A stretch of 64,000 bases of DNA from a bacterium (GCA_043827085.1 JBDRPO010000004.1:2847-66846); one strand, 5' to 3'; numbered from the stretch's first letter, positions 8,055 through 54,212 are shown. A program made the numbers and translations. The notes: a model not told the origin generated them from the letters alone.

Positions 8055-10862
8055 ATGTCTGCTCGTACTTTTGCCGTCGAAACTCAAGCTCAAGCCGTGG
8101 CCATTTTCGGTGGTCCTACTGAACTCACCACCAAACTTACTCAGGAGCTAGAGGTAAACGGTCTTCATGCCGAAAGGGTAGCATCTTCAACCCAGCTCGA
8201 AAAACTACAAGCTACTCACGACCCCGATTATCTTGTGATCTTCTCTGACTTTAAAGACGGCGATCTCCTCCCAACTCTCCAAACTCTGGTTGAATCAGGC
8301 CAATCTCACCTTATTCTCATCTCTCCCCTTAACTCGCCCGCCTCGAATCTTCCCCTCCCTCCCGCCACCCTAAATCTTATTTATTCTGATTATGTAGGGG
8401 ATGACGAGTTATTCTCTCCCACTCTCGAGTCTTGGCTCACTAATATCCAAAGCAGCCGCGCCCTCGAACTTGCCGGTGATGGACTTTCCGAACTAAGCCT
8501 CTTGGGGATTAACGATCTAGCTAGCCTTCTCAGTCTCGCCATTTTCCATAGCGGGGGAGGGTCCGGCGTCACTCTCTACTTGGGTAATCCCACTCCAATT
8601 TCATTTCTTAATCTCGCTTACCTTATCCGCACCAACTTGCCCTTTAAAATAAACTTATCGTTTACGGCAGGGGAGGAGTCCACTCAGCTTGAACTGGACA
8701 ATTTTGCCGCCGCTCTCGAGAAACTAAACTATCATCTCCTCGATTCATTTGAAGACTTGCTTAAAATCTACCTCAAGACGCACGTGAAAGTCGAAGAAAA
8801 ACCCACCCCTCGTAGCGAAGCGGAGACCCCTCCATTAAACCCGAATGCCAATACGGCTGAACAAGCAGTCAGTGGCAAATCGAGCATTAATGGCGGGGCC
8901 AAAAAACTTACCCCTCTTAAAACCTCAATCCCCGCTTTTATTCCTCTCCAGTCCAAAAAGCGCCCCTTTAGCTTCTCAAATCTTATCCCCAAATTTCATC
9001 TAAAACGTCACCATATTCTCCAGCCCTCTCCCACCCATCCACACCTTCGTACCATCGTGGGTAGGGGACTCATTATTGGTCTTGCCCTCTACCTTGGGAC
9101 TGTCGCCTTCTCCGGCACCATCGTCGGCTTATCCGTCAATAGCAACATAAAAACCATTCGCCAAGAAGAGCTCCCTAAAAGTAATCGGCTAAGTAGCTTT
9201 TCGCTCACCTACCTCCAAGCCAACTGGATCGCGCTCACTTCCGTCCCCGGTCTCTCCACCAAACAATCCATGATCGACTTAACCCTACTTCTGGACGCCT
9301 ATCACCAGGCTCTCTCCGCCCTAGACACGGCGAGTCTCTTAAATAAATCAACTCAAAATCTCCTTGGTTACATTTTTGGCTCCGGCAACGCCGACGTTGC
9401 TCAAGTTATCAGTCTCTCTCGTCTTCAAGCCGAGGAGTTGTATCAAAAACTCTCACTCCTCGATGGTTCACTTCCAAAGGATCCGCCCCTCATCGTCCCA
9501 ACTAAATATCACTTATCCTACGAGCGAGCTAAAGCTAAATTGGGGGTAGTCAAAAGGGGAGTCACCACCACCAAGGCCGTCCTCGCAGTCACCCCCGACT
9601 TTATCGGCCTTGGCGGCAGACGAAAATACGCCGTTCTCTTCCAAAATAATCTTGAGCTCCGCGCAACCGGCGGGTTTATTGGCTCTTTTGCCATTCTCAG
9701 TTTTGAAAACGGCAAGCTTTATGACATGCCGATCTACGATGTATACGACTCTGACGGTCAGCTCAAGGGCCACGTTGAGCCCCCATCTCCCATCAAAACT
9801 ATCCTCGGCGAAGGGAATTGGTATCTCCGCGACTCAAACTTCGATCCAGATTTCCCCACAAGTGCCAGGCGGGCCGAGTGGTTTATCAACAAATCACTCA
9901 ATTTTAACCTTGATGGTACGATCGCCATGACGATTCCCTCGCTCTCCGCGCTTCTGGAAGCTACCGGTCCCCTCGAAATTCCCGATTATAACGAGACCAT
10001 AACCGGGGGGAATCTCTCCGAACGGGTCCAACTTCACGCCGAAGTCAATTTTTTCCCCGGCAGCACCAAAAAGAAAGAATTTTTAAGTACCGTCGCAAGT
10101 GCTCTCTTTGCCAAGCTTCCTAGCCAGGGAGGACTAGTTAGCCTCAAGTTGGGGACAGCCCTCGCCGACTCAGTCGCGAGAAAAGATACTCTTATCTCGC
10201 TCACAAATACTACTACCAACCACGTTTTTCAGACTCTTGGCTGGAACGGCAGTTTGGTTGATTTTCCCTGTCCCACCACACTTAACTGCCACAAAGACTA
10301 CGCCATGGTCGTCGATAGTAATTTTGGTGTCAACAAAGCCAATTACTTTATCAAAAGAAATATCGAAGAGGTTATAACCCTTGATCAAAATCTGGCCGTG
10401 AATCACGTCCTACGTTTACGTTACCAGAACACTGCCACCTCCGACGCTTGGCCTGCCGGCACCTACAAGAATTATCAGCGACTCTATCTCCCGATCGGCA
10501 CCACCATCGGGAAAATCAGAGTAGGGGACAAGGAGCTCGCGACCAAAGACTATACTGTCTACTCCGAGCACAATCGCGCTGTTCTCAGCTATCTCGTTTC
10601 TGTCCCCATCAAAGAAACAGTCATCGTTCAAATAGAATACACAACTCCCCAACTCCCTCAGGAAAATGAACTTCTCTACACCTGGTACTGGCAAAAACAA
10701 CCCGGTACTTCCAGTGATGACAGTCTCACGGTTTATCTCAACCACCCCGCGTACTTGAGCCCCACGACCATCTCTCCCGCGGCCGACCTTGGTCCCCAAC
10801 AACTCAAGTTTGACATGCAAAACGACACCGATCGTCGCATCACCGTCAAATTCACCAAGTAA
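8055..10862 (+). CDS. Large membrane-anchored protein; C-terminal extracytoplasmic part resembles the DUF4012 family
   Basis: 935 aa. An ~300-aa N-terminal cytoplasmic region precedes one TM helix near residue 335 (LIIGLALYLGTVAFSGTIVGL). A GGFIGSFAIL.. block follows, as recalled for DUF4012 cell-envelope proteins of Actinobacteria and Saccharibacteria. Confidence 0.4.
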   Translation: MSARTFAVETQAQAVAIFGGPTELTTKLTQELEVNGLHAERVASSTQLEKLQATHDPDYLVIFSDFKDGDLLPTLQTLVESGQSHLILISPLNSPASNLPLPPATLNLIYSDYVGDDELFSPTLESWLTNIQSSRALELAGDGLSELSLLGINDLASLLSLAIFHSGGGSGVTLYLGNPTPISFLNLAYLIRTNLPFKINLSFTAGEESTQLELDNFAAALEKLNYHLLDSFEDLLKIYLKTHVKVEEKPTPRSEAETPPLNPNANTAEQAVSGKSSINGGAKKLTPLKTSIPAFIPLQSKKRPFSFSNLIPKFHLKRHHILQPSPTHPHLRTIVGRGLIIGLALYLGTVAFSGTIVGLSVNSNIKTIRQEELPKSNRLSSFSLTYLQANWIALTSVPGLSTKQSMIDLTLLLDAYHQALSALDTASLLNKSTQNLLGYIFGSGNADVAQVISLSRLQAEELYQKLSLLDGSLPKDPPLIVPTKYHLSYERAKAKLGVVKRGVTTTKAVLAVTPDFIGLGGRRKYAVLFQNNLELRATGGFIGSFAILSFENGKLYDMPIYDVYDSDGQLKGHVEPPSPIKTILGEGNWYLRDSNFDPDFPTSARRAEWFINKSLNFNLDGTIAMTIPSLSALLEATGPLEIPDYNETITGGNLSERVQLHAEVNFFPGSTKKKEFLSTVASALFAKLPSQGGLVSLKLGTALADSVARKDTLISLTNTTTNHVFQTLGWNGSLVDFPCPTTLNCHKDYAMVVDSNFGVNKANYFIKRNIEEVITLDQNLAVNHVLRLRYQNTATSDAWPAGTYKNYQRLYLPIGTTIGKIRVGDKELATKDYTVYSEHNRAVLSYLVSVPIKETVIVQIEYTTPQLPQENELLYTWYWQKQPGTSSDDSLTVYLNHPAYLSPTTISPAADLGPQQLKFDMQNDTDRRITVKFTK

Positions 10863-28919: not shown

Positions 28920-29297
28920 ATGTCTAAATCGCGCTTTCGTCGTGGCTCCCGCAAATCCATTTACCTCATCCTCGGTTTCTCCTTTATCCTCGCTCTCGGT
29001 TACGTCTATTTCCGCGCGCTCCTCTCACCTGCTCCCGCTCAAATCTTCCCCATCACCCCCACAGTGCTCGAATACGGCAATACCACCGTCGAAGGCACGC
29101 TCCGCAAAGATGCTCCCGCAGGCAGTCCCGGCAACTTCATTCTCGTCCTGTCAGACTCCCGCCCCATCCTCTTAGATGTCCAGGGTCTCGACCATCTCCT
29201 CAATCAAACAGTTACTGTTTCCGGCCTTCTCTCTCCCGCTGCAGAAACTAGTGCTCCTATGACTATGGTTGTCTCTCAACTTACCGTCGCTCAATAA
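28920..29297 (+). CDS. Hypothetical membrane-anchored small protein
   Basis: N-terminal TM helix (IYLILGFSFILALGYVYF), 125 aa, immediately upstream of the giant surface protein. Confidence 0.35.
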   Translation: MSKSRFRRGSRKSIYLILGFSFILALGYVYFRALLSPAPAQIFPITPTVLEYGNTTVEGTLRKDAPAGSPGNFILVLSDSRPILLDVQGLDHLLNQTVTVSGLLSPAAETSAPMTMVVSQLTVAQ

Positions 29298-29304
29298 ATT
29301 CATT

Positions 29305-32300
29305 ATGAAAAAATCCAAACTCAAAAAATCTCACCAGCCCAAATTTTACCCCTTCAAATACCTCAAATTCATCGCTCTCGCCACCATTATCTTTTTCGCC
29401 GGCTCTCTATATCTCGCCTTCCGTTACACCACCGGTCCCTTTGCTACTTTTGTCTTCCTCCATCCTCTCTCCGTCAATCTAATCAAATCTGACGTCCCCG
29501 AGCTAAATGCCAAAAATGCCGCCAAACAGGCCGCCGCTATCCATCTCAAACAAAAACCCGGTGATACAAAAGGAGCCGAAAAAGTTGCCGCCTCTGCCGC
29601 TAAGCAAGCCGTCAAGCAAACCATCCAAACCTTTGCTCCCCAGACAAAAGTGAAACCAGAAAATGCAATTGATAGTCAATCATCCACAGAACAAAAAATC
29701 ATGCAATTTGTTGAAGACACCACTGGCAAATCGCTTGATTTAAATGCTAGCATCTCTGACGCCATCAAAAAAGCTCAAGAATCAGTTGTTACAGATGACT
29801 TTGTTAGTAAAGCCGTTAATGATGCTAAATCAAACATTCCTGCAAGCTCTGGTACTAAATGTGGTAGTAGTAGCAAATCTTGCGGTGGTGGTAACGTCCC
29901 CGTCAAAGTTGGTTGCTGGGCCGCCACTGGTGGCGCACCAACCGATGAAGAGGGAAAAACTCTTCCTCAACGCTCCTGCGTCCGCTGCGGTCTCGATGCC
30001 TCCGGCGAGCCAACCTGGAATCGTGACGACAGTGGTGGTTCAGTATCCGGGAAAAACTGTAGTGATCTCTATAAACAAGATCCTTCCCAGGTCATCCTCC
30101 CCCCCAATCCTCCCACAGAATACACTCTCGGCATTTCTCAACCCAAGGGCGGGTGGGAAGGCACTAGGGTACTTGAGGATGGTACTATCATCACTTGTTC
30201 TGCCAAATTCGGTTGTTGGGATGGTGGCGCCAAAGCCAACTGCTACGATTCTGACGGTGGTGTCGTTGTGACCGGTGGCTCTGGCTCCGGTGGCAAGGGT
30301 AGATGTTTCAACGGTGGTTGGTACGAGACCGACTCTGCCTATCAAGAAGTATCAACTAATTTCGATAACACCATGAAAGCAAAATGTGAAGAGTTTGGTA
30401 AATCATTTAGCGGTGGCAAATGCGGCGGCAGCCAGGAACCTATACCCGAATCAGACTTAGGCATTCAACTTTCAGATGCACAAAAACAAGAGGAACTAAA
30501 GAAAGTCCAAGAAGCTCAAAGACTCGCCGAAGCCGCCGAAGCAAAACGCCTCGCCACTCAATATTCTGATAGTTCATGTGGCAGAAAATTGTATACTGGC
30601 GAAAAATGTTTCCCCGTCAATGTTAAAACATCTAGTGGCGAAAACCAAACCAAATACATGATCGTTCCCAATGACTTAAAAGCTACCATTACAACCCAGG
30701 GTGGTAACAACAGTATGGAGCGACAGTATTTTGCATATAAATTCGGCTCCAATTCCGGTGAAGCCAACATTCCCACCACCCCTAAACTCTCTCAAGATGG
30801 TGGTCAATTTGTCGTAAAAGCTTCAGATTGTGCAGGGGATGGCGCAAAGGGTGCTAAAGTTACTCGTTCCGGTAATCAAATGGGATATGCCTGTGGTAAC
30901 TCCAACGGTACTCCATTCGATTATGTTAAACAGCTCAACGAAATCACTGCCATGCAAAAAGCTGCAGAAGCCAAAGCTGTTTCTTCGAAAGATGACACTA
31001 TCGCGCTCCAAAATCAATCTGACAATACGCAAAGAGATAAATTGATCTTAGCCTACAATGCTCTCAAGCAAAACGGAATATCAATCAAAACAATCAAAAC
31101 TGACAATTGTAGTACCTCAGCCGATTGTCTTGACTACAATCAATATATCGATCTAATCGATCTAAATGATTTAAAACATCAAATAGACATTCATCACGAC
31201 ATCGTAAATTACGTCAATACGTATGAGCAAATTATCGATAATAACAAAAATGCGTTTTATGATAGATCATTCAAAAATTTTTGGACAGGTGAATACCACA
31301 CGAAAGTATATTGCGACCAAAACAAACTGAAGTGCATAAAAGTAGCCAATGGTATTGCCTATAATTATCTAACGGTAGATCAAATCAATACTAAAGCGGC
31401 AAGTTTACCAATCGAAAACTTTACACTCGCCCCCACCACAATTGTTTCTCCCACCAAGGAAGAATCAATCCTTACTTCTTCCGAAGAACTCCTTGCCAAA
31501 TACAACCAACTCGAAAAGGATGGGTATACAAAAACATTCAATGAAAATAATCAATACAAGATAGGGATTCTATGCGGAGACGATTGTATCAAGATTCCTG
31601 GACGTTGGTTATTTAACTACCTACCAGCCTCCACCATCGAGGAAATTTATAATAAATATTATCCAACCACTCAATCAGTCACAACTCCAACTACACCCAC
31701 CCCTCCTAACACTACTACCAACCCCGTCGCCGTTTATCCCGCCCCAGTCACTCAACCAGCCCCCACCCAACCAGGCGGCAATAGTTCAAATGGAATTAGT
31801 TTAGATTTTACCGTTGCCAAACAAAATGGCGTTACCACTCCAATGCCAGGTACCTACAGTAAAGCCACTCCAAATGGAATTCAAGTACTAGAACGCGGTT
31901 GTGGACCTCTCACCGTTTATAACGTCAAAAAATATCTCGGGCAAAATATTACCGTAGGCCAAGCCTATCAAGAATACAACTGGACTTGCACAGACAAAGG
32001 TTGTTCAACTAACGTTGATCAAACCCTCGCCGAATTAGGAGCTCGCGAAAGTTTCAAAAAGCCTATTATCGACGCTACAACTATTAAAAGTAAAGACGGC
32101 GTTTATCTTTATGGTGGTCAAGTTTCCGGAAACGAAGGCAGTAAAATTAACCACATATCAGCCTTTATTGTAGACAATGGTGTAGTCTACAAACTAGACT
32201 CCAATTTTGGCAGCAATAAGCCAGAGAAATGTTCCGACATCGCAAGTGGGAGTATTAAGTGTGGAGCTACCAGTTACCGCATAGCCCCAGCCGACCAATC

Positions 32301-32352
32301 TGACGGAATCGCCGATGCACTCTATTATCTCCCCGGCTCAGATACACAATAA
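29305..32352 (+). CDS. Large Cys-rich, Thr/Pro-linker-containing cell-surface protein (hypothetical)
   Basis: ~1015 aa. N-terminal signal anchor, K/A-rich segment, multiple Cys-rich modules, a TTPTTPTPPNTTTNP linker and a C-terminal globular domain. Confidence 0.4.
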   Translation: MKKSKLKKSHQPKFYPFKYLKFIALATIIFFAGSLYLAFRYTTGPFATFVFLHPLSVNLIKSDVPELNAKNAAKQAAAIHLKQKPGDTKGAEKVAASAAKQAVKQTIQTFAPQTKVKPENAIDSQSSTEQKIMQFVEDTTGKSLDLNASISDAIKKAQESVVTDDFVSKAVNDAKSNIPASSGTKCGSSSKSCGGGNVPVKVGCWAATGGAPTDEEGKTLPQRSCVRCGLDASGEPTWNRDDSGGSVSGKNCSDLYKQDPSQVILPPNPPTEYTLGISQPKGGWEGTRVLEDGTIITCSAKFGCWDGGAKANCYDSDGGVVVTGGSGSGGKGRCFNGGWYETDSAYQEVSTNFDNTMKAKCEEFGKSFSGGKCGGSQEPIPESDLGIQLSDAQKQEELKKVQEAQRLAEAAEAKRLATQYSDSSCGRKLYTGEKCFPVNVKTSSGENQTKYMIVPNDLKATITTQGGNNSMERQYFAYKFGSNSGEANIPTTPKLSQDGGQFVVKASDCAGDGAKGAKVTRSGNQMGYACGNSNGTPFDYVKQLNEITAMQKAAEAKAVSSKDDTIALQNQSDNTQRDKLILAYNALKQNGISIKTIKTDNCSTSADCLDYNQYIDLIDLNDLKHQIDIHHDIVNYVNTYEQIIDNNKNAFYDRSFKNFWTGEYHTKVYCDQNKLKCIKVANGIAYNYLTVDQINTKAASLPIENFTLAPTTIVSPTKEESILTSSEELLAKYNQLEKDGYTKTFNENNQYKIGILCGDDCIKIPGRWLFNYLPASTIEEIYNKYYPTTQSVTTPTTPTPPNTTTNPVAVYPAPVTQPAPTQPGGNSSNGISLDFTVAKQNGVTTPMPGTYSKATPNGIQVLERGCGPLTVYNVKKYLGQNITVGQAYQEYNWTCTDKGCSTNVDQTLAELGARESFKKPIIDATTIKSKDGVYLYGGQVSGNEGSKINHISAFIVDNGVVYKLDSNFGSNKPEKCSDIASGSIKCGATSYRIAPADQSDGIADALYYLPGSDTQ

Positions 32353-45033: not shown

Positions 45034-45222
45034 CTAACCCGTTCCCATCACAAACCCGCGACTATTCCCATACTGCACAAAACCCTGATAATCCAATTCG
45101 GTGTGATCTACTATAGATCCTTCAAAATTAGTGCCAGCCAAGTCCGCTCCCACAAACTTCGCCTTAGTGAGTTTACATCGATCAAACACCGCCACCGCTA
45201 GTTTTGCCTGGTCGAAATCCAC
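45034..45222 (-). CDS. Pentapeptide-repeat protein (C-terminal portion; possibly the 3' part of an interrupted gene)
   Basis: A(D/N)LxG-type pentapeptide repeats. Only 17 nt separate it from the upstream pentapeptide ORF. Confidence 0.45.
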   Translation of the reverse strand: MDFDQAKLAVAVFDRCKLTKAKFVGADLAGTNFEGSIVDHTELDYQGFVQYGNSRGFVMGTG

Positions 45223-47101: not shown

Positions 47102-47464
47102 CTATTTCATCAGCTTCTCAAGTGCGCGGGACAGTCGGATACTCCACACATCCGCCCATTCTTCCGCCTTCACTTTTGTCAACGCCATCTGCAAACCCTT
47201 GTTATTCATATTCTCCGCAACCGACGCAATAGTTGCGGTCGACACTTTAAGTACGTCCTTTATGTGCTCGTACGACTGGCGCTTGTCCAGAAATACCGCG
47301 ATCGCCAACCGCTTGGCGATAGCCGACAACTCATTTTCCGACATGAGTGCTTTCAGGGTTAGTTCCACCTCCACTTCATTCTTAGCATCCGCCAAAACCT
47401 GGTATAGGATTTTATATACCTGCGCTTCTATTTTATTGTTCATTGACTGGGTGGATTTTTTCAT
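47102..47464 (-). CDS. TrpR/YerC-YecD-like helix-turn-helix protein
   Basis: ~120 aa with a C-terminal helix-turn-helix (KRLAIAVFLDKRQSYEHIKDVLKVSTATIASV) typical of the YerC/YecD Trp-repressor-like family. Confidence 0.45.
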   Translation of the reverse strand: MKKSTQSMNNKIEAQVYKILYQVLADAKNEVEVELTLKALMSENELSAIAKRLAIAVFLDKRQSYEHIKDVLKVSTATIASVAENMNNKGLQMALTKVKAEEWADVWSIRLSRALEKLMK

Positions 47465-47777: not shown

Positions 47778-47797
47778 CTTATGACTATAATAGCAGT

Positions 47798-48751
47798 ATG
47801 GAGCTCACTACCCTTACTCTAGTTATCGTCTTTTTCCTCCTGGGATTCATGCTCCTCATCCTCAAATTTTTCCGCGACGACCTCCACTCCCTTCGCTCCT
47901 CCATGGACTCGACCAAAGACACCATCAACTCTAGTCTGGCGGTCAATACCAAAGACATTAACGATCGCCTACTTCGTGCCACCGAGGTAATCGGCGATCT
48001 AAAAAAGGAAGCAGGGGCTTTTTCTGAGGTCAGCCGTAGCATGAAAGATCTCCACGACTATCTTCGCTCCCCAAAGTTGCGGGGAAATATCGGCGAAATG
48101 GTCCTCAAAGACCTGATCAGCCAGATCTTCCCCAAGAGCTCGTATCGTCTCCAACACGCTTTCAAATCCGGGGACAAAGTCGACGCCGTGATCACGACCG
48201 ATGCGGGCCTCCTCCCCATCGACTCCAAGTTTCCCATGGAAAACTTTCAGAAAATGATGTCCACCGTAGCTCCTGCCGAGCAAGACCCACTCCGCAACAC
48301 CTTTGCCCGCGACATTCGTGCTCACGTGACCGCAATCAGCAAAAAATACATTCTGCCAGAGGAGAACACGCTCGACTTTGCCCTCATGTATATCCCTTCC
48401 GAGTCTGTTTTCTACGAGGTCGCCAGCTCCGAAGATCTAATGGAGTTTGCGCGGGGCAGTCGTGTCTACCCCGTCTCTCCCAATACCTTGTACGCCGCCC
48501 TCCAAACCATCCTCTTGTCCTTCGAAGGCAAAAAGATCGAATCGCAAGCCAAAGAAGTTTTTAAACTCATGCGCGGCATCACCAAAGACTTCGGCAAAAC
48601 CACTGATAGTTTGACCACCTTGGGTGGACACCTCACCAACGCCTACAATAAATTTTCTGATGTCCAATCTCACTTCAACCAAATCACCCAAAAGCTCAGT
48701 TCCACTCGCGAATTGACTGGTGGCGACGACAAAAAATTACTCGACGAATAG
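47798..48751 (+). CDS. rmuC: DNA recombination protein RmuC
   Basis: N-terminal TM/coiled-coil and a C-terminal RmuC nuclease-like core (GNIGEMVLKDLISQIF...DAVITTDAGLLPIDSKFP). Confidence 0.8.
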   Translation: MELTTLTLVIVFFLLGFMLLILKFFRDDLHSLRSSMDSTKDTINSSLAVNTKDINDRLLRATEVIGDLKKEAGAFSEVSRSMKDLHDYLRSPKLRGNIGEMVLKDLISQIFPKSSYRLQHAFKSGDKVDAVITTDAGLLPIDSKFPMENFQKMMSTVAPAEQDPLRNTFARDIRAHVTAISKKYILPEENTLDFALMYIPSESVFYEVASSEDLMEFARGSRVYPVSPNTLYAALQTILLSFEGKKIESQAKEVFKLMRGITKDFGKTTDSLTTLGGHLTNAYNKFSDVQSHFNQITQKLSSTRELTGGDDKKLLDE

Positions 48752-48787
48752 TCATTACTCTAATTATTCGAATAATCGAAGTATTGA

Positions 48788-51700
48788 ATGAAAAAACCAA
48801 CTAAAAACCTCGCATTTAAAAAAGCCTACAAAGCACTCAATGCCGAGCAGAAAAAAGCCGTGGACACAATCGACGGCCCAGTCATGCTCATCGCCGGCCC
48901 CGGCACCGGCAAGACCCAAACTCTCGCGCTCCGCATCGCCAACATTCTCAAGAACACCGACACTCCCGCCTCCAGTATTCTCGCTCTCACTTTTACCGAG
49001 TCCGGCGCCCGCGCTATGCACGCGAGGCTAATCAACATGATTGGTGCGGAGGCCTACTACGCCCACATCTCCACTTTCCACGCTTTCTGTATAGAAATCA
49101 TCAAAGACAACCCCGATCACTTCACCCTGAACCCCAATCTCGAACCTCTTTCGGATCTAGAGAAACTCAAAATTATCTATGAGCTAATCGACACTACGCC
49201 ACTCAAATATTTGCGCCCCGTGGGTGCCCCCCGTCTCTACGTCAAAGCTATCCTAGGAGCGATCAGCGATCTAAAGCGTGAAAGTGTTTCGGTCGACGAG
49301 TTTGAAGAATTGCTCAGAGCTGAAGAAATACTACTAAATTCGGATGATGCCAAAGATCTCAAGAAAGTTGAACTGACTAAGCGGCTTCACAATCTCGCCA
49401 AAAATAAAGAGTTGAATATCCTCTATGGCAAATACCAGGCTCAGCTCAAAAAACTTGAAACATTTGATTTTGAAGATATGATCTCCACGGTCGTAGCGGC
49501 ATTCAAGACAGATGGTGATCTGCTTCGTTCCTGTCAGGAAAAATATCTCTATATTTTAGTTGACGAATATCAGGACACCAACTCCGCTCAAAACGAACTC
49601 ATCCTTGCCCTGTCGAGTTACTGGGGAGATAACGCAAATATTTTTGTCACCGGCGATCCAGACCAGTCCATCATGCGTTTCCAAGGCGCCTCAATCGAAA
49701 ATCAACTTTCTTTCATTAAAGTGTATCCCAAAGCTACCGTGATCACGCTTCATGCTAACTATCGTAGCTCCCAAACAATATTGGATGTCGCAGACTCCCT
49801 CATCTCTCACAACAATCTCAGGATTAGCGACGTGGTCCCAAGTGTCGATACCCACTTAATTTCGCAATGTGGCAAAGGGGAGTCAATCGGACTAGCCGAG
49901 CTCTCTGGCAGTACCGCCGAAACGGTTTTCATTGCAGAAGATATCAAGCGCAAAATAAAAGGCAGAGTTAGTCCCACAGATATCGCGGTCATCTACCACA
50001 CCAACAAAGAGTCCATGATTATCGCCGACACCCTAGTCAAATACGGTCTCGACTACACCGTGCAAGGTGGAGCCAATATTCTCGCCGACCCGACCGTACG
50101 CAATTTTATTAAAATCTTAAAAGTCATTTATAAAATGCGCGATAGCGACGACGACGAAGATCTCTTTACCATTCTCCATTATGATATTTTTCATATCGAC
50201 CCCCTCGACGTTTTAAAAATCTCACGCTTGGCCGGGGTCAAGCGACTGAGTTTGTTTGATGTCATCGCAAGTCCAGAATTATTAAATTCACTTGACCTCG
50301 CAACTAGAGCCCAAATCAACACGACTATTACCTCGCTCGGTGTCTGGCAAGCACTGGACGCCAGTACTACCTTCAGCGAGTTTTTTGAAAAAGTCTTAAA
50401 CGAGTCAGGCTACCTCACCTGGGTTTTGGGACAGTCAGATGCACACCACCGCCTCGCTCGCCTCAATACTTTGTTCGACGAAGTCAAACGGATGAATCGC
50501 TCCGATCACGCCCTTGATCTCAAAGGTTTTATCGAGAATCTGCATATTATGGAAGACAACAATTTACGGCTCGAAGAATCGACTTATGGTGTTAGTCGTG
50601 ATGCTATCACGCTCACGACCGCGCACAAGAGCAAAGGTCTCGAATGGGAGCATGTCTATATCTATCGTGCGATCGACAAAGGGTGGGGCAACAACAAAAA
50701 GCCGGAGAAAATCACCCTCCCCGATGGCGTCTTAAAACACGTCAAGTTATCCGACAAAGAAAAAAATGAAGATGAGCGGAGGCTTTTCTACGTGGCTGCT
50801 ACCCGCGCCAAGTCAGAGCTCACGATCACCTATGCCGATTCTTATTCTAGCTATGGCACCTCCCGTGAAGCCGTCCCCACCATGTTTATTTCTGAGTTAG
50901 GCCTGCCCACCACAGCTTCTCGCGACAGCGGGATGCGGGCGGGAGACAGTCCTTTAAAAAAGCTCGACGTGCAAGCCGTCGAAAATGAAGCACACAAACA
51001 TATCGAAACTCTCCTTACCTCTCCAACAAGTAGCAATTATTCGCAAGCTGAAGAGGCTTTTCTCCAGGACATCGCCGACAATTACAAACTCTCCGCCACT
51101 TCGCTCAACTCTTATCTCTTTTGTGCTTACAAATTTAAGCTCGACAAATTGCTGAGAGTCCCGCACGCGAAAAAGTCTCACCTCGCCTTTGGTACTGCCG
51201 TCCACTCTGCTCTCGAGAATTTTTACACAAAGTTCAAAGATGAAGGTGTTGCTCCCGGCAAAGAGTATTTACTCTCCGAGTTTGCACGCGCGCTAAGTTC
51301 AGCCGTCATTACCAAGGCCGATTTATCTATCTTCCAGGCCAAGGGTAGGGAAGTCCTCTCCGCCTACTTCGATTTAAACGCCACTAGTTTTACCCTTCCC
51401 CTAGCGACAGAAAAAAATATTTCCGCGCATCTCGGGGATATCGAGATCTCCGGCAAACTCGATCGCCTCGAGTGGTCAAACAAAGAGGTTAAACTCGTCC
51501 GCGTCATCGACTACAAAACTGGCAGTCCCAAAACGATGGGGAAGATAGAGGGCACCACCAAGAATAGCGATGGTGATTTACAGCGCCAACTAGAGTTTTA
51601 CAAACTTCTCATCGATTCGGGTCCTGGGTTAAATTACAAATTTGGCGAGGCCATGTTCGATTTTGTGGAAGAACCACTCGACAAGGGTAAGGACGGCAAA

Positions 51701-51871
51701 CGCCATATCCTCGTCACTGACAAACAAGTCAACGATCTAAGATCTATGATCTATCAAACTATGAAAGATATCCGCTCGCTCCACTTCCCCCGCACGACTA
51801 ACTACAAAGCCTGCGCCAAATGCGCCTTCGCCGACCACTGCTACCCAGACGGTATTCTTACCAACCTCTAG
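48788..51871 (+). CDS. AddA-like single-chain helicase-nuclease: UvrD/PcrA superfamily-1 helicase fused to a C-terminal PD-(D/E)xK nuclease with a Cas4/AddB-type Cys cluster
   Basis: Walker A GPGTGKTQT, helicase motifs through motif VI, then a nuclease core (IDYKTGSPK; D...E.K) with C...CAKCAFADHC (C-x2-C-x5-C plus one upstream Cys). Confidence 0.8.
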   Translation: MKKPTKNLAFKKAYKALNAEQKKAVDTIDGPVMLIAGPGTGKTQTLALRIANILKNTDTPASSILALTFTESGARAMHARLINMIGAEAYYAHISTFHAFCIEIIKDNPDHFTLNPNLEPLSDLEKLKIIYELIDTTPLKYLRPVGAPRLYVKAILGAISDLKRESVSVDEFEELLRAEEILLNSDDAKDLKKVELTKRLHNLAKNKELNILYGKYQAQLKKLETFDFEDMISTVVAAFKTDGDLLRSCQEKYLYILVDEYQDTNSAQNELILALSSYWGDNANIFVTGDPDQSIMRFQGASIENQLSFIKVYPKATVITLHANYRSSQTILDVADSLISHNNLRISDVVPSVDTHLISQCGKGESIGLAELSGSTAETVFIAEDIKRKIKGRVSPTDIAVIYHTNKESMIIADTLVKYGLDYTVQGGANILADPTVRNFIKILKVIYKMRDSDDDEDLFTILHYDIFHIDPLDVLKISRLAGVKRLSLFDVIASPELLNSLDLATRAQINTTITSLGVWQALDASTTFSEFFEKVLNESGYLTWVLGQSDAHHRLARLNTLFDEVKRMNRSDHALDLKGFIENLHIMEDNNLRLEESTYGVSRDAITLTTAHKSKGLEWEHVYIYRAIDKGWGNNKKPEKITLPDGVLKHVKLSDKEKNEDERRLFYVAATRAKSELTITYADSYSSYGTSREAVPTMFISELGLPTTASRDSGMRAGDSPLKKLDVQAVENEAHKHIETLLTSPTSSNYSQAEEAFLQDIADNYKLSATSLNSYLFCAYKFKLDKLLRVPHAKKSHLAFGTAVHSALENFYTKFKDEGVAPGKEYLLSEFARALSSAVITKADLSIFQAKGREVLSAYFDLNATSFTLPLATEKNISAHLGDIEISGKLDRLEWSNKEVKLVRVIDYKTGSPKTMGKIEGTTKNSDGDLQRQLEFYKLLIDSGPGLNYKFGEAMFDFVEEPLDKGKDGKRHILVTDKQVNDLRSMIYQTMKDIRSLHFPRTTNYKACAKCAFADHCYPDGILTNL

Positions 51872-51934
51872 TATAATAACAGGAGTTACGCACTCTCCCC
51901 TCAATTAGTTTGATTTGACAATTCATTACAGGAG

Positions 51935-52582
51935 TTACGCACCCGCCATTAGTATCCCTTCATAATGTTTGATTCGGTTGTATCCCCAGCTCTGGTTGAA
52001 GATAAACTTTTCTTTGAGGGAATAGAGGGTTTCTGTGGTGTGTCTCTCCTTCTGCAAAATCAGGTAGCTCACACAGATACATAAGAGGTGCTTTTCTTGT
52101 GCCCTGGTTGATCTCGCCTGACATTCGGCAAAGTGGAGTTCTTGCTTGAGAAAACGGAAGACATCCTCAATGCACCACCGCTTTAGATACTCTTTGGGAA
52201 TATCTTCTTTTGTGAGGGATAAATCGTTGGTGCCCAGATACCGATGGTCGTACTTAACCACCTTGATCTTGCACTGCTCGCCGATATATCCAGTTGTTTG
52301 ATCACCTTCCTCAGTTAAGTCCTCATCCAGTCGACACCCGTTCACAACTCGATTCTTTTTGATTCTCCCCACCCAAGTCCAGCCATATGAGTCAAGGAGA
52401 TTGACGACCTCATCAGCCACATAAAAGGCATCCATCAGAACTCGCTGGGGATGAATACACCAGACCACTTTCACTTCCCGAAGCAGGGACTTGGCAAACT
52501 CAATCTTGGTTTTGTAGTGCTTGCGGTACCACCGCCAACACAGGGGAATCGTGACTTTCCCATTGCTCCACACGACCATCAC
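51935..52582 (-). CDS. IS transposase, C-terminal ORF (orfB) with DDE/RW..IE..F..LK signature
   Basis: LKRWCIEDVFRFLKQEL is the C-terminal signature of IS4/IS5/IS701-type DDE transposases. Confidence 0.65.
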   Translation of the reverse strand: MMVVWSNGKVTIPLCWRWYRKHYKTKIEFAKSLLREVKVVWCIHPQRVLMDAFYVADEVVNLLDSYGWTWVGRIKKNRVVNGCRLDEDLTEEGDQTTGYIGEQCKIKVVKYDHRYLGTNDLSLTKEDIPKEYLKRWCIEDVFRFLKQELHFAECQARSTRAQEKHLLCICVSYLILQKERHTTETLYSLKEKFIFNQSWGYNRIKHYEGILMAGA

Positions 52583-52917
52583 TAGGTTGTATCCAAAGAC
52601 ATGGAACTTTTGACATGAGTCATAAACCCAGCAGGCTTGGGAAATACTTTTCCAAATGGCTTAGCCAGTACCGTATCATCAATCGCTATCCACCCCGATC
52701 CCCCGAGCATGCCAAATAGGTGCACCACGACAAAACGATACCAACTCCTCCAGGAGAAGGACGAGGTCAAAAACCTAGTCAAGGCGTCATGGGAATAGCC
52801 AAACTGACGAAACAAGGAAGTAGTAGTGACCTTCTTCCCTTGCAATAATCCGCGAATGTAGCATACTAATGGGGCAGGCATAGTGATCCTTTCTGATATT
52901 CTAAGTACCAGAAACAC
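52582..52917 (-). CDS. IS transposase, N-terminal ORF (orfA)
   Basis: Contains IAIDDT (first catalytic Asp region). Ends one nucleotide into the start of orfB in another frame, indicating a programmed frameshift or an inactivating mutation. Confidence 0.65.
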   Translation of the reverse strand: MFLVLRISERITMPAPLVCYIRGLLQGKKVTTTSLFRQFGYSHDALTRFLTSSFSWRSWYRFVVVHLFGMLGGSGWIAIDDTVLAKPFGKVFPKPAGFMTHVKSSMSLDTT

Positions 52918-53187
52918 TATGCCTGCTTCACTAATGAATTGTCAAATCAAACTAATTGAGGGGAGAGTGCGTAACTCCTGAAAAAAAGAACTAGAAAATA
53001 AGCTAAAAGAGATAAGATGGAATCCAAAAAATAGTCATTAAATTCCACCCCAGGTGTATTTCCACTTCGCCTGCGGCTTCGGGCGGACTCAGCAGCTTTG
53101 TATTTTCAACACTTCGATTATTCGAATAATTAGAGTATCTCCTTTTTTTACATCTTGACTCTGTCTTGAAATAGTATATTACTACCC

Positions 53188-53460
53188 TTGTCATTTATTA
53201 TCGGACTAAACAATATGTGTCATACCGCAGATCAAATTACTTGGGTAGCAAAACAACTAGGTTTCAAGGACTTTCAATGTCAGAGGGAAAATGAATGTAA
53301 TGAAGAAAGTTGTCTCCTATGCGCCGATTTGGGTTTTACCCATGAAGAAATCATTACAATTACCAATTATCTTCAAGGACAACGGCAGATAGTCAGATTT
53401 GACGATATCGCAGTTCAAGCCAACTCGGTTGATTACACCCCGGGTGTGTCAGCCTTTTAG
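53188..53460 (+). CDS. Hypothetical Cys-rich small protein
   Basis: 90-aa ORF; no recognised motif. Confidence 0.25.
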   Translation: MSFIIGLNNMCHTADQITWVAKQLGFKDFQCQRENECNEESCLLCADLGFTHEEIITITNYLQGQRQIVRFDDIAVQANSVDYTPGVSAF

Positions 53461-53501
53461 TTTAGTCAAGGTCTGACCTTGCAGGGTGATAAACTACAAA
53501 T

Positions 53502-54212
53502 ATGCCCCTGCAAAAACTCCTCACCCATTTAGACAAGCAAAAAGACCCAGAGCGGGCAGCCAATCTCGCGCGATTTTTCAAAACGGGGGCAGGGCAGTAC
53601 GGCGAAGGCGACAAGTTTGTAGGACTCAAAGTGCCCGAGCTCCGTGAGGCCGTAAAGCTATATTGGCAAAACCTCACCCTCCTCGATCTTAAGGAATTGC
53701 TTCGCAGTCCCTACCACGAATATCGCCTCGCCGGTCTCTTGGTTTTAGTCAAAAAATACGAGAAGGGGAGACCCGCCGAGCAGAAAAAGATCTATGATTT
53801 CTACCTCGCTCACCTGGACCGTATCAACAACTGGGATTTGGTCGATCTCTCCGCCCCCAACATTGTGGGCGACTATCTCTTCACCCATCCCCGCAAACTA
53901 CTATACAAATATGTTTGGTCAAGTAATCTTTGGCACCGCCGGATCGCAGTTTTGTCCACTTTTACCTTTATTCGCGAGCACGACTTCACCGACTCACTAA
54001 AACTTGCCGAGCTTCTCCTCGCCGACCCTCATGACCTCATCCACAAAGCCGTCGGGTGGATGCTCCGGGAAATCGGCAAGCGCGATCTACCCACCCTGAT
54101 CTCATTTCTCGATGCTCACGCCACTGTCATGCCCCGCACCATGCTCCGCTACGCTATCGAAAAATTGTCTCCCGCTGCGCGGCAGAACTATCTGATACTA
54201 AAGAAACATTAA
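53502..54212 (+). CDS. DNA alkylation repair protein (AlkD/AlkC HEAT-like repeat glycosylase family)
   Basis: N-terminal LAREL...DPERAANLARFFKTG...GLKVPELR and an all-alpha repeat architecture typical of the PF08713 DNA_alkylation family. Confidence 0.7.
   Translation: MPLQKLLTHLDKQKDPERAANLARFFKTGAGQYGEGDKFVGLKVPELREAVKLYWQNLTLLDLKELLRSPYHEYRLAGLLVLVKKYEKGRPAEQKKIYDFYLAHLDRINNWDLVDLSAPNIVGDYLFTHPRKLLYKYVWSSNLWHRRIAVLSTFTFIREHDFTDSLKLAELLLADPHDLIHKAVGWMLREIGKRDLPTLISFLDAHATVMPRTMLRYAIEKLSPAARQNYLILKKH

What the first reader, a model, noticed from the sequence alone, without database searches (positions are those of the whole stretch)
48757..53136. A 32-bp element with a 14-bp perfect palindromic core (ATTATTCGAATAAT) present in inverted copies flanking the helicase-nuclease + IS segment
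ACTCTAATTATTCGAATAATCGAAGTATTGAA at 48757-48788 abuts the start codon of the AddA-like gene. Its reverse complement, with one mismatch, lies at 53105-53136. In addition, AATAGTCATTA occurs as a direct repeat at 48747-48757 and 53029-53040. Either the 4.3-kb block (helicase-nuclease plus IS) is bounded by remnants of a larger mobile unit, or the palindrome is a shared operator. In the second case it would be a repressor site controlling DNA-repair genes, possibly an SOS-box analogue in a lineage where LexA boxes are uncharacterised.
Basis: seen in the sequence. Interest (0 to 1): 0.55.

Follow-up and report, generated by a model that had tools for sequence, protein, structure and literature searches.

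The report
Shared regulator-binding palindrome, not transposon ends
The two inverted 33-base repeats are real, but they are two copies of a conserved 32-base promoter/operator palindrome found across a group of tiny uncultured bacteria, most often beside a Trp-repressor-like regulator gene, and they do not mark the ends of a mobile element.

Summary
A 33-nt inverted repeat lies at 48756-48788 and 53105-53137, with one mismatch and a 14-bp perfect palindrome in each copy. None is expected by chance.

The mobile-unit reading fails. The order TrpR-like / RmuC / AddA-like is conserved in all relatives examined. The IS has its own perfect 49-bp ends. The repeat has no target-site duplication.

The element belongs to a family of about 32-bp dyad sites, consensus aatACTnnnATTATTCGAATAATnnnAGTatt, found in CPR/Microgenomates genomes. 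These sites are almost always intergenic, and most end within a few bases of a start codon. They lie before AddA in five relatives. They bracket a 147-152-aa Trp-repressor-family gene in every locus where that gene was found, including one probably from this same genome. They also precede glycosyltransferase genes.

Genes in this genome look mostly leaderless, so a site abutting the ATG covers the core promoter.

Best reading (about 0.7): an operator overlapping promoters, probably bound by the TrpR-like regulator. It is not an SOS box. It matches no LexA motif, and its main neighbours are envelope-glycosylation genes. Copy 2 has no adjacent start codon, and its role is open.

This is a new, undescribed member of a known kind. 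Interest is moderate.

The parts
48754..48785 (.). Element copy 1, a 32-bp near-palindrome: ATTACTCTAATTATTCGAATAATCGAAGTATT.
   Evidence: It scores 45.8 bits against a matrix built only from sites in other genomes. The next best non-element hit in the window scores 9.2, which is shuffle level.
48763..48776 (.). 14-bp perfect palindrome core of copy 1 (ATTATTCGAATAAT). Its right half, AATAAT, is -10-like.
48749..48776 (+). Promoter-like site TAGTCA-16-AATAAT, ending 11 nt before the AddA ATG. There is no Shine-Dalgarno sequence in between.
48788..51871 (+). AddA-like UvrD-helicase plus PD-(D/E)XK nuclease gene, 1027 aa. This is the gene served by copy 1.
   Evidence: Pfam. The exact protein is in an NCBI MAG and in Logan sample SRR26275510.
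53108..53139 (.). Element copy 2: AACACTTCGATTATTCGAATAATTAGAGTATC on the + strand. No start codon follows within about 75 nt on either strand.
   Evidence: Matrix score 41.2 bits. Sequence.
53117..53130 (.). 14-bp perfect palindrome core of copy 2.
53103..53130 (+). Promoter-like site TTTTCA-16-AATAAT, facing ORF81 and alkD. A second promoter-like site, TTTACA-17-AATAGT, lies at 53147-53175.
51880..52980 (-). Insertion sequence with perfect 49-bp terminal inverted repeats and a DDE transposase split into two ORFs (52917-52582 and 52582-51935). It is an unrelated insertion, 8 nt after the AddA stop, into the AddA-alkD spacer. It is not part of the element system.
   Evidence: It is absent from all relatives. 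The Logan contig L001 ends inside its left repeat.
47102..47443 (-). 113-aa Trp-repressor-family gene, syntenic with rmuC-addA in all relatives. It is a second-choice candidate binder. It is also present in relatives that lack the element.
   Evidence: Pfam PF01371, 48 bits. It is 75-92% identical across loci and is aligned with the 147/152-aa regulators.
47798..48751 (+). RmuC-family gene. Its stop codon lies 2 nt before element copy 1.
53215..53460 (+). Orphan 81-aa ORF, 84 nt downstream of the copy 2 AATAAT. It has no family hit and no homologue in the relatives. Whether it is a real gene is doubtful.
53502..54212 (+). DNA-alkylation-repair (AlkD-like) gene. It has its own leaderless-type box, TAAACT, 6 nt before the ATG, so it does not need copy 2.
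48747..48757 (+). 11-mer AATAGTCATTA, with a second copy at 53030-53040. The repeat is probably chance. At copy 1 it contains the rmuC stop codon and the -35-like TAGTCA.

Best explanation
Each copy is one instance of a conserved 32-bp dyad-symmetric protein-binding site. The site has a 14-bp core, AT(T/G)ATTCGAAT(A/C)AT, an unconstrained 3-bp spacer on each side, and outer ACT/AGT triplets. Genes in this lineage appear mostly leaderless, so a site that abuts a start codon also covers the core promoter. Occupancy of the site would then control transcription initiation, most simply by repression. The likely binder is a 147-152-aa Trp-repressor-family protein whose own gene is bracketed by such sites, which implies autoregulation.

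In the window, copy 1 is the operator/promoter of the AddA-like gene. Copy 2 is a second site in the spacer after AddA. That spacer is now split by an unrelated IS. Copy 2 has no adjacent start codon and may be an auxiliary or relic site.

- **Shown:** the repeat, its conservation, its positions relative to genes, its motif architecture, and its adjacency to the regulator gene.
- **Inferred:** protein binding, the identity of the binder, repression, and the transcription start points.
For: 1. **Conservation.** Scans seeded only with DNA patterns found the same extended element in CPR/Microgenomates loci. It lies directly before AddA in L031 and L037, where the junction GAAGTATTGAATGAAAAAACCAAC is identical to the window's. 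L006 has a degenerate form before AddA. In L010 and L021 it lies before GNAT-AddA.
2. **Location.** All but 4 of 40 ATTCGAAT-core sites lie outside ORF interiors, although 87% of the sequence is ORF-covered. By eye, 3 of the 4 fall in spurious over-extended ORFs, and the fourth (window 517) is the only non-palindromic site. Of 32 gene-proximal sites, 22 end between -3 and +6 nt of an ATG.
3. **Link to the regulator.** A PF01371 gene of 146-152 aa is directly flanked by family sites in 9 pattern-seeded loci. In an independent test, three loci seeded by the protein rather than the pattern (L047-L049) all carry sites 1-3 nt before its ATG and a second site beside a neighbouring gene.
4. **Same genome.** L047 comes from the same sequencing run as the window's organism. 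Its regulator's NCBI accession (MFH2085963.1) is 689 numbers from that of the window's AddA (MFH2085274.1). They are probably from the same MAG, which would then hold at least 4 copies.
5. **Motif architecture.** Over 39 distinct sites, positions -13 to -11 are complementary in 33-37, positions -10 to -8 in only 11-18, and positions -7 to -5 in 37-38; the ATTC core positions -4 to -1 were fixed by the search pattern. This is a bipartite dyad motif with a free spacer, as expected for a dimeric protein.
6. **Promoter overlap.** The four 152-aa regulator genes have TTGACA, then 17-18 nt, then AATAAT (the right half of the core), then 8-11 nt, then ATG. The window has TAGTCA-16-AATAAT before AddA.
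7. **Leaderless context.** In the window, -10-like boxes peak 6 nt before the ATG, and only 8 of 52 genes have a Shine-Dalgarno-like sequence.
8. **Family precedent.** TrpR/HisR-family operators are palindromes at promoters, and autoregulation is frequent (PMC9413887).
Against: - No binding or transcription data exist. The binder is inferred only from adjacency.
- Copy 2, and several sites elsewhere, have no adjacent start codon: the sites after the regulator's stop between convergent genes in L013 and L025, and the three sites in L027.
- The outer ACT/AGT triplets are 20 bp apart, against 8 bp in the E. coli trp operator, so a single TrpR-like dimer could not contact them in the classical way.
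- The regulators score below NCBIfam's TrpR and YerC/YecD cut-offs.
- The -10 assignment is ambiguous. For AddA, AATAAT is 11 nt from the ATG, against the genome's usual 6 nt.
- Most loci were found with patterns that contain the core, so core conservation is partly by construction.
- Close relatives L002, L003, L005 and L007 lack the element before AddA.
Confidence: 0.7

Rival explanations
1. The palindromes act as nucleic-acid hairpins rather than as a protein-binding site. They could be RNA terminators or attenuators, or REP-like DNA structures.
For: Some family members are perfect 28-32-bp palindromes that fold strongly (-16 to -17 kcal/mol, z -5.6 to -7.5). Several lie just after a stop codon between convergent genes (L013, L025). 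The outer triplets switch as complementary pairs, ACT/AGT versus GTA/TAC.
Against: - The window's own copies fold weakly (-5.7 to -7.3 kcal/mol, z -1.2 to -1.6).
- No terminator-like site was found at either copy.
- Three consecutive positions in each arm are non-complementary in most sites, and that asymmetry (CTA versus TCG) is conserved across genomes.
- Half-site sequence, and not only pairing, is conserved.
- With TTGACA-17-AATAAT promoters, the upstream copies lie ahead of the transcription start.
Confidence: 0.1
2. The element is a special promoter that RNA polymerase, or an alternative sigma factor, reads directly. It could be bidirectional. No dedicated repressor would be involved.
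For: Both strands carry AATAAT. Sites abut start codons in a genome that looks leaderless. Promoter-like matches overlap both copies.
Against: - Only 2 sites occur in 64 kb, while ordinary genes use plain TAnAAT boxes.
- The 32-bp dyad symmetry and the outer triplets are not needed for a promoter.
- The tight adjacency to a DNA-binding regulator gene in 12 loci would be left unexplained.
Confidence: 0.1
3. The two copies are recombination sites. Either they flank an invertible segment, or the palindromes are cassette junctions at which genes are inserted.
For: The repeats are inverted and 4.3 kb apart. Different genes sit next to family palindromes in different genomes: GNAT, an HD hydrolase, an alpha/beta hydrolase and KNTase_C. 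The region after AddA varies among relatives.
Against: - No recombinase gene was seen next to the two copies in the window, among the neighbours scanned between 45.6 and 55 kb.
- All assemblies show rmuC followed by addA in one orientation, including an independent Logan contig.
- Identity between the copies is only 27 nt.
- Most sites sit at a fixed distance from start codons, which fits a regulatory role.
Confidence: 0.05
4. The repeats are remnant terminal inverted repeats of a larger mobile unit that carried the helicase-nuclease gene and the IS.
For: Inverted 33-nt repeats bracket a block that contains an IS.
Against: - RmuC-AddA synteny is conserved in all relatives, without the IS.
- The element occupies the same position before AddA in genomes with 52-86% identical AddA.
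- There is no target-site duplication.
- The IS has its own unrelated 49-bp ends.
- Identity between the copies stops exactly at the limits of the conserved 32-bp element.
Confidence: 0.02
5. The palindrome is a LexA-type SOS box, or an analogue of one, that controls DNA-repair genes.
For: Copy 1 precedes a helicase-nuclease gene. Copy 2 lies upstream of an alkylation-repair gene.
Against: - The motif has a contiguous TTCGAA centre. It does not have the GAAC-N4-GTTC layout of Gram-positive LexA boxes (own knowledge; the Corynebacterium operator is unrelated).
- The family's main neighbours are the TrpR-like gene and glycosyltransferase genes.
- The other UvrD-like helicase in the window has no site.
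- alkD has its own promoter box.
- A LexA-like S24 protein with a DinB-like ORF is present in locus L038.
Confidence: 0.03

Closest known systems
TrpR and HisR (YerC) operators of the Trp-repressor family
   Same: They are dyad-symmetric DNA sites at promoters of regulated genes, often also before the regulator's own gene (PMC9413887). The candidate binder passes Pfam's PF01371 threshold. The outer half-site (A/T)TACT resembles the E. coli GNACT half-site.
   Different: - The site is 32 bp, with a 14-bp inner core that has no counterpart in the 20-bp TrpR/HisR motifs.
- The ACT/AGT triplets are 20 bp apart, against 8 bp.
- The proteins are 147-152 aa, with an extra C-terminal part, and fall below NCBIfam's TrpR and YerC/YecD cut-offs.
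- The neighbouring genes are for glycosylation and a helicase-nuclease, with no amino-acid biosynthesis genes among them.
LexA SOS boxes, such as the Gram-positive CGAAC-N4-GTTCG box
   Same: A palindrome upstream of a DNA-repair gene, overlapping the promoter.
   Different: The sequence layout is different. The gene set is not repair-centred. No lexA, recA or uvrA association was seen, and a LexA-like protein exists separately in a related locus.
Terminal inverted repeats of IS elements and composite transposons
   Same: Inverted repeats of about 30 nt bracket a few kilobases that include a transposase.
   Different: There is no target-site duplication. The bracketed AddA gene is in conserved synteny. 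The element is itself a palindrome, and single copies occur before many genes in other genomes. The real IS has separate 49-bp ends.
Invertible-segment crossover sites, such as hix or the fim switch repeats
   Same: Inverted repeats, each with internal dyad symmetry around a 2-bp centre.
   Different: No recombinase is nearby, only one orientation is seen, and the segment holds a whole conserved gene. In known switches the segment holds a promoter.
REP-type palindromic elements and intrinsic terminators
   Same: Intergenic palindromes in multiple copies per genome. Some lie after stop codons.
   Different: They are AT-rich and weak as hairpins in this window. There is no T-tract. An unpaired 3-bp spacer is conserved, and the distance to start codons is fixed.

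Membership tests
Operator of a Trp-repressor-family regulator | Dyad-symmetric DNA site conserved in sequence across genomes | tested here: met
   The consensus is aatACTncgATTATTCGAATAATcgnAGTatt, from 35 sites outside the window. The complementarity profile over 39 sites is.
Operator of a Trp-repressor-family regulator | Site lies at or over the promoter of the regulated gene | tested here: inconclusive
   Sites abut start codons (22 of 32). They overlap -10-like and -35-like matches. The genome looks leaderless. No transcription start has been measured.
Operator of a Trp-repressor-family regulator | Site occurs before the regulator's own gene (autoregulation, which is frequent in this family) | tested here: met
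   This holds in 9 pattern-seeded loci and 3 protein-seeded loci.
Operator of a Trp-repressor-family regulator | About 20-bp palindrome with half-sites 8 bp apart, as in TrpR/HisR | tested here: not met
   The site is 32 bp, the outer triplets are 20 bp apart, and there is an extra 14-bp core. TrpR/HisR motifs are taken from PMC9413887.
Operator of a Trp-repressor-family regulator | Specific binding by the regulator protein | not testable with these tools
   This needs EMSA, footprinting or DAP-seq with MFH2085963.1.
Trp-repressor protein family (the candidate binder) | Significant match to the family profile | tested here: met
   PF01371 scores 28.8-50.9 bits, against a cut-off of 27. The proteins fall below the NCBIfam TrpR (67 bits) and YerC/YecD (42 bits) equivalog cut-offs. 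The nearest solved structure, 3kor, reaches only E = 0.8. They are therefore distant members and are not orthologues of TrpR or HisR.
Transposon or IS terminal inverted repeats | Target-site duplication outside the repeats | tested here: not met
   The flanks are ...GTCAT|TACTCT and AGAGTA|TCTCC, with no direct repeat.
Transposon or IS terminal inverted repeats | The bracketed block is present or absent as a unit among relatives | tested here: not met
   AddA follows RmuC in all relatives. Only the IS is absent from them.
LexA SOS box | Match to a known LexA motif, and location before lexA, recA or uvr genes | tested here: not met
   The motif layout differs (from own knowledge of LexA boxes). 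Only two sites occur in the window, and there is none at the second UvrD-like gene. The neighbours are mostly glycosylation genes. Genes for recA, uvrA and lexA of this genome were not available to test.
Invertible DNA switch | Nearby site-specific recombinase, and both orientations observed | tested here: not met
   No recombinase domain was found in the neighbouring ORFs scanned. Independent contigs show one orientation. Read-level data were not available.
Intrinsic terminator or structured hairpin element | Stable stem-loop, with a T-tract in the case of terminators | tested here: not met
   Fold z-scores are -1.2 to -1.6. There are no terminator-like sites. The arm positions -10 to -8 are mostly non-complementary.

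The most novel reading that the evidence does not exclude
The palindromes might serve a second role as recombination or cassette junctions, loosely like integron attC sites. Single genes would be inserted or swapped at these sites together with their own site. Examples are the GNAT, HD hydrolase, alpha/beta hydrolase and nucleotidyltransferase-like genes. This would explain why different genes sit against family palindromes between rmuC and addA and in the glycosylation cluster, and why the region after AddA is so variable. My evidence does not exclude this, but nothing directly supports it.
Probability: 0.05. Interest if true: 0.75.

Novelty: new member of a known kind. Interest (0 to 1): 0.4.

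Why it matters
Gene regulation in the Candidate Phyla Radiation is almost unexplored, because these bacteria are mostly uncultured. This analysis yields a concrete, testable pairing:
- an uncharacterised 147-152-aa Trp-repressor-like protein;
- a conserved 32-bp bipartite palindrome;
- a candidate target set: the regulator's own gene, envelope glycosyltransferase genes and, in some Microgenomates, a helicase-nuclease gene.

It also shows that in a genome that appears mostly leaderless, an operator has to sit against the start codon. That is useful to know when reading other CPR intergenic regions. Full-text searches for the motif sequence and for CPR regulon/operator terms found no paper describing it.

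For genome annotation, the practical lesson is that short inverted repeats bracketing a gene plus an IS need not be mobile-element ends.

Tried and rejected
- **RNA genes.** tRNA and Rfam scans of the window found only one unrelated tRNA-Cys.
- **Second 1027-aa ORF.** I compared AddA with the other 1027-aa ORF at 29269-32352. They are unrelated, so the equal length is a coincidence.
- **Exact palindrome in close relatives.** It is absent from L002-L007. At first this suggested a lineage-specific oddity. Wider scans, and a degenerate copy in L006, overturned that.
- **The 124 nt between the IS and copy 2.** I searched for homology to any fetched locus, and for a remnant ORF (GNAT- or AddA-like) on the minus strand after copy 2. 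Only the element itself matched.
- **IS transposase look-up.** I tried to find other IS copies through the exact transposase ORF. It is not on record.
- **Weaker sites in the window.** A degenerate pattern and a position weight matrix found none above shuffle level.
- **Literature.** Searches for the motif and for CPR regulons found nothing relevant. The one paper containing TTATTCGAATAA concerns a Corynebacterium LexA-operator oligonucleotide, which is unrelated.
- **The 113-aa TrpR-like gene beside rmuC as the binder.** I ranked it second, because it is equally conserved in relatives that lack the element.
- **Not run.** Structure prediction and fold search would not have decided between the explanations.

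Full report
**1. The observation**

Its reverse complement is at 53105-53136 with a single mismatch, and 100 shuffles of the window gave no match. The repeat finder extends it to 33 nt, 48756-48788 / 53105-53137, at 97% complementarity. The 14-bp perfect palindrome ATTATTCGAATAAT occurs only at 48763-48776 and 53117-53130, even with two mismatches allowed. The last base of copy 1 is the A of the ATG of the 1027-aa ORF.

The 11-mer AATAGTCATTA is present at 48747-48757 and at 53030-53040. A shared 11-mer between the two flanks arose in 89 of 5000 shuffles. I treat it as probably chance.

**2. Local anatomy**

Pfam gives the following order:
- MetRS (-);
- a 113-aa Trp-repressor-family gene, 47102-47443 (-);
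- a small membrane-like ORF (-);
- RmuC, 47798-48751 (+);
- copy 1;
- a UvrD-helicase + PD-(D/E)XK protein, 48788-51871 (+);
- an IS, 51880-52980, with perfect 49-bp ends of its own and a split DDE transposase;
- 124 nt of unassigned sequence;
- copy 2;
- an orphan 81-aa ORF;
- an AlkD-like gene, 53502-54212;
- AhpC.

The window is 46% G+C. The AddA protein's best hits are named Woesebacteria or Microgenomates, so the organism belongs to the Candidate Phyla Radiation.

**3. It is not a mobile block**

I fetched loci encoding AddA homologues of 76-80% identity (L002-L007). All have TrpR-like / RmuC / AddA in the same order, and none has the IS. What follows AddA differs in every one: a trypsin-like protease, Bro-N, RadC plus a type I restriction system, or a methylase plus a restriction enzyme.

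The 33-nt repeats have no target-site duplication. Their identity stops at the limits of what turns out to be a conserved 32-bp unit.

**4. The element is a family**

- A scan of 185,579 species genomes with TAATTATTCGAATAATCG gave 25 hits. That is about my own estimate of what chance would give for an 18-mer in a collection of this size. Twelve of the hits have extended dyad symmetry of at least 12 of 16 positions, and nine clearly lie in CPR gene contexts.
- A metagenome scan with ACTCTAATTATTCGAATAAT gave 13 more loci.
- The same extended sequence, AATACTCTAATTATTCGAATAATCGAAGTATT, lies directly before AddA in L031 (AddA about 52% identical) and in L037, where the junction to the ATG is identical to the window's.
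- It lies before a GNAT gene that overlaps AddA in L010 and L021.
- A degenerate copy, ACTACCATTATTAGAATAATAGTAGT, lies before AddA in L006.
- L002, L003, L005 and L007 lack it.

The site is therefore old at this position, and it has been lost repeatedly.

**5. Other recurrent contexts**

Family sites lie on both sides of a 146-152-aa gene that passes Pfam's Trp_repressor threshold. Its products begin MGRVSKRRIDPE... or MSQVSKHKL.... Family sites also lie directly before GT4-type glycosyltransferase genes (MKKALIVSPYLDHLGGGERYML...), other glycosyltransferase genes and an alpha/beta hydrolase gene.

The loci were seeded with the DNA pattern alone, so the adjacency to a DNA-binding regulator is an independent observation.

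**6. Independent test through the protein**

I searched with the 147-aa protein and fetched three homologues chosen without regard to DNA. All three loci carry family palindromes that end 1-3 nt before the regulator's ATG, plus a second one beside a neighbouring gene. In these loci the regulator sits inside a large glycosylation cluster containing PMT_2, GT2, a polysaccharide-synthesis protein (Pfam Polysacc_synt) and GT4 genes.

One of the three, L047, comes from Logan sample SRR26275510, the sample that also holds the window's AddA and AlkD contigs. The two proteins' NCBI accessions, MFH2085963.1 and MFH2085274.1, are 689 apart. They are probably from the same MAG. That genome would then have at least four copies: two in the window, one before the regulator (AATACTACGATTATTCGAATAATTAGAGTATTgtATG), and one just after its stop codon.

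**7. Architecture of the motif**

A matrix built from 35 sites outside the window gives the consensus aatACTncgATTATTCGAATAATcgnAGTatt. It scores the two window copies at 45.8 and 41.2 bits. The next best non-element hit scores 9.2, which equals the shuffle maximum.

Complementarity over 39 distinct sites is as follows:

| Positions | Complementary sites (of 39) | Note |
|---|---|---|
| -13 to -11 | 33-37 | mostly ACT/AGT, a minority GTA/TAC |
| -10 to -8 | 11-18 | free spacer |
| -7 to -5 | 37-38 | inner core |

Positions -4 to -1, the ATTC of the core, are fixed by the ATTCGAAT search pattern and were not informative. This is a bipartite dyad motif with a free 3-bp spacer, which is what a symmetric protein would impose. 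A helix under selection would not keep three unpaired positions in each arm.

The window copies also fold weakly as RNA, at -5.7 to -7.3 kcal/mol with z of -1.2 to -1.6. No terminator-like site is present.

One caveat applies. The core is partly fixed by the search patterns. The unbiased evidence comes from the secondary sites in each locus and from the protein-seeded loci.

**8. Why it abuts the start codon**

In the window, only 8 of 52 long ATG-started ORFs have a Shine-Dalgarno-like sequence. TAnWWT boxes peak sharply 6 nt before the ATG, in 11 genes. This is the signature of leaderless transcription. It is an inference from sequence, because no transcription start has been measured.

In such a genome the whole promoter lies within about 40 nt upstream of the ATG. 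Of 32 gene-proximal family sites, 22 end between -3 and +6 nt of the ATG. The four 152-aa regulator genes have a perfect TTGACA, then 17-18 nt, then AATAAT (the right half of the core), then 8-11 nt, then ATG. Before AddA the scan finds TAGTCA-16-AATAAT, 11 nt from the ATG.

Where the site lies 20-34 nt from the ATG, a separate TATAAT-like box sits at the usual distance from the ATG, and the site lies just upstream of it, over or near the -35 region. A protein bound at any of these sites would therefore meet RNA polymerase. Repression is the simplest outcome, and it is the norm for the TrpR family. Activation is not excluded.

**9. Copy 2**

On the + strand, copy 2 has the commoner orientation, with the TAGAGT arm pointing downstream, as before the regulator and GT4 genes. 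However, the nearest ATG (ORF81) is 84 nt away. ORF81 has no homologues. AlkD has its own TAAACT box 6 nt before its ATG. On the minus strand nothing longer than 7 codons follows copy 2.

Without the IS, copy 2 would lie 132 nt (8 + 124) after the AddA stop, in a spacer of about 530 nt. It may be an auxiliary site, like the sites after the regulator's stop between convergent genes in L013 and L025. It may instead be a relic of a gene lost from this variable region. I cannot decide between these.

**10. Comparison with known systems**

The closest known kind is an operator of the TrpR/HisR family. Those operators are palindromic, lie at promoters, and are often autoregulatory (PMC9413887). The differences are real:
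- the site is 32 bp, against 20 bp;
- the outer triplets are 20 bp apart, against 8 bp;
- there is an extra 14-bp core;
- the proteins are longer and score below the TrpR and YerC/YecD equivalog cut-offs.

I therefore call it a distant, undescribed member of that kind and do not identify it as a TrpR or HisR site.

The SOS-box idea fails on three counts: motif layout, gene set, and the presence of a LexA-like S24 protein next to a DinB-like ORF in locus L038. The transposon-end and invertible-switch ideas fail the tests listed in the membership table.

**11. Verdict**

The repeat is real and is not due to chance. Its best explanation, at about 0.7 confidence, is a pair of regulator-binding sites from a conserved CPR family.

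- **Shown:** sequence, conservation, position, motif architecture, and adjacency to the regulator gene.
- **Inferred:** protein binding, the identity of the binder (about 0.5-0.6 for the 147-aa protein), repression, and leaderless starts.

Interest is moderate. The element is ordinary in kind, but it offers a rare, directly testable regulator-operator pair in a group whose regulation is essentially unknown.

Noticed in passing
whole window (for example 47783-47797, 45084-45100, 53487-53501): Most genes lack a Shine-Dalgarno sequence (8 of 52 have one). Many carry a TAnAAT-like box exactly 6 nt before the ATG, which suggests a largely leaderless transcriptome in this CPR genome.
   Followed up: partly
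window 51880-52980: A 1.1-kb IS has perfect 49-bp terminal inverted repeats and an internal near-copy of the end (51925-51947). Its DDE transposase is split into two frames at 52582. It is inserted 8 nt after the AddA stop, with no clear target duplication. The independent Logan contig L001 ends inside its left repeat, which suggests the IS is multi-copy or polymorphic.
   Followed up: partly
window 53109 (start of L008); L047 10443-10472: Short-read (Logan) contigs of the same sample break at these palindromes. L047 ends 30 nt into what appears to be a perfect 32-bp palindrome. My guess (not tested) is that this reflects de Bruijn-graph assembly folding back on a long perfect palindrome. L008 starts at 53109, inside copy 2 and 129 nt short of the IS. 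No repeat I could find explains that. Another near-identical copy, or a strain variant, may exist.
   Followed up: partly
L002, L003, L005, L007 downstream of AddA; window 51872-53501: The region just after AddA differs in every relative: a trypsin-like protease, Bro-N, RadC plus a type I restriction-modification system, or a DNA methylase plus an NgoBV-type restriction enzyme. It looks like an insertion hotspot or defence islet.
   Followed up: no
proteins P0010, P0028, P0029, P0042, P0045 (AddA homologues): Several AddA homologues are about 1370-1390 aa and carry Hint/intein-splicing Pfam domains (PF01079, PF14890). Some Microgenomates AddA genes therefore appear to contain an intein.
   Followed up: no
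L005 9555-12586: In this relative the AddA gene is called as two ORFs, 149 aa and 861 aa, that overlap at 10001-10004. This is either a frameshift or pseudogene, or an assembly error.
   Followed up: no
L010 3512-3967, L021 3661-4116, L031 453-908, L037 173-847: Different small genes are inserted between rmuC and addA in different genomes: a GNAT acetyltransferase, on either side of the element, or an HD-domain hydrolase. Each lies against a family palindrome.
   Followed up: partly
L038 1587-3496: A LexA-like Peptidase_S24 protein is followed by an ORF that I recognise by its N-terminal sequence as DinB-like (DNA polymerase IV); it was not scanned against Pfam. The pair lies immediately upstream of a 146-aa TrpR-like gene and its palindromes. 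At least some CPR relatives therefore appear to have a conventional SOS regulator.
   Followed up: no
L021, L025, L027, L031 (record titles): These loci have typical CPR/Microgenomates gene content, including the same MetRS / TrpR-like / RmuC / AddA block. Their record titles nevertheless read 'uncultured Pseudomonadales' or 'Gammaproteobacteria'. The taxonomy labels of these third-party assemblies look wrong.
   Followed up: no
window 29269-32352: A second ORF of exactly 1027 aa has no Pfam hit and no similarity to AddA. It is a large uncharacterised protein.
   Followed up: no
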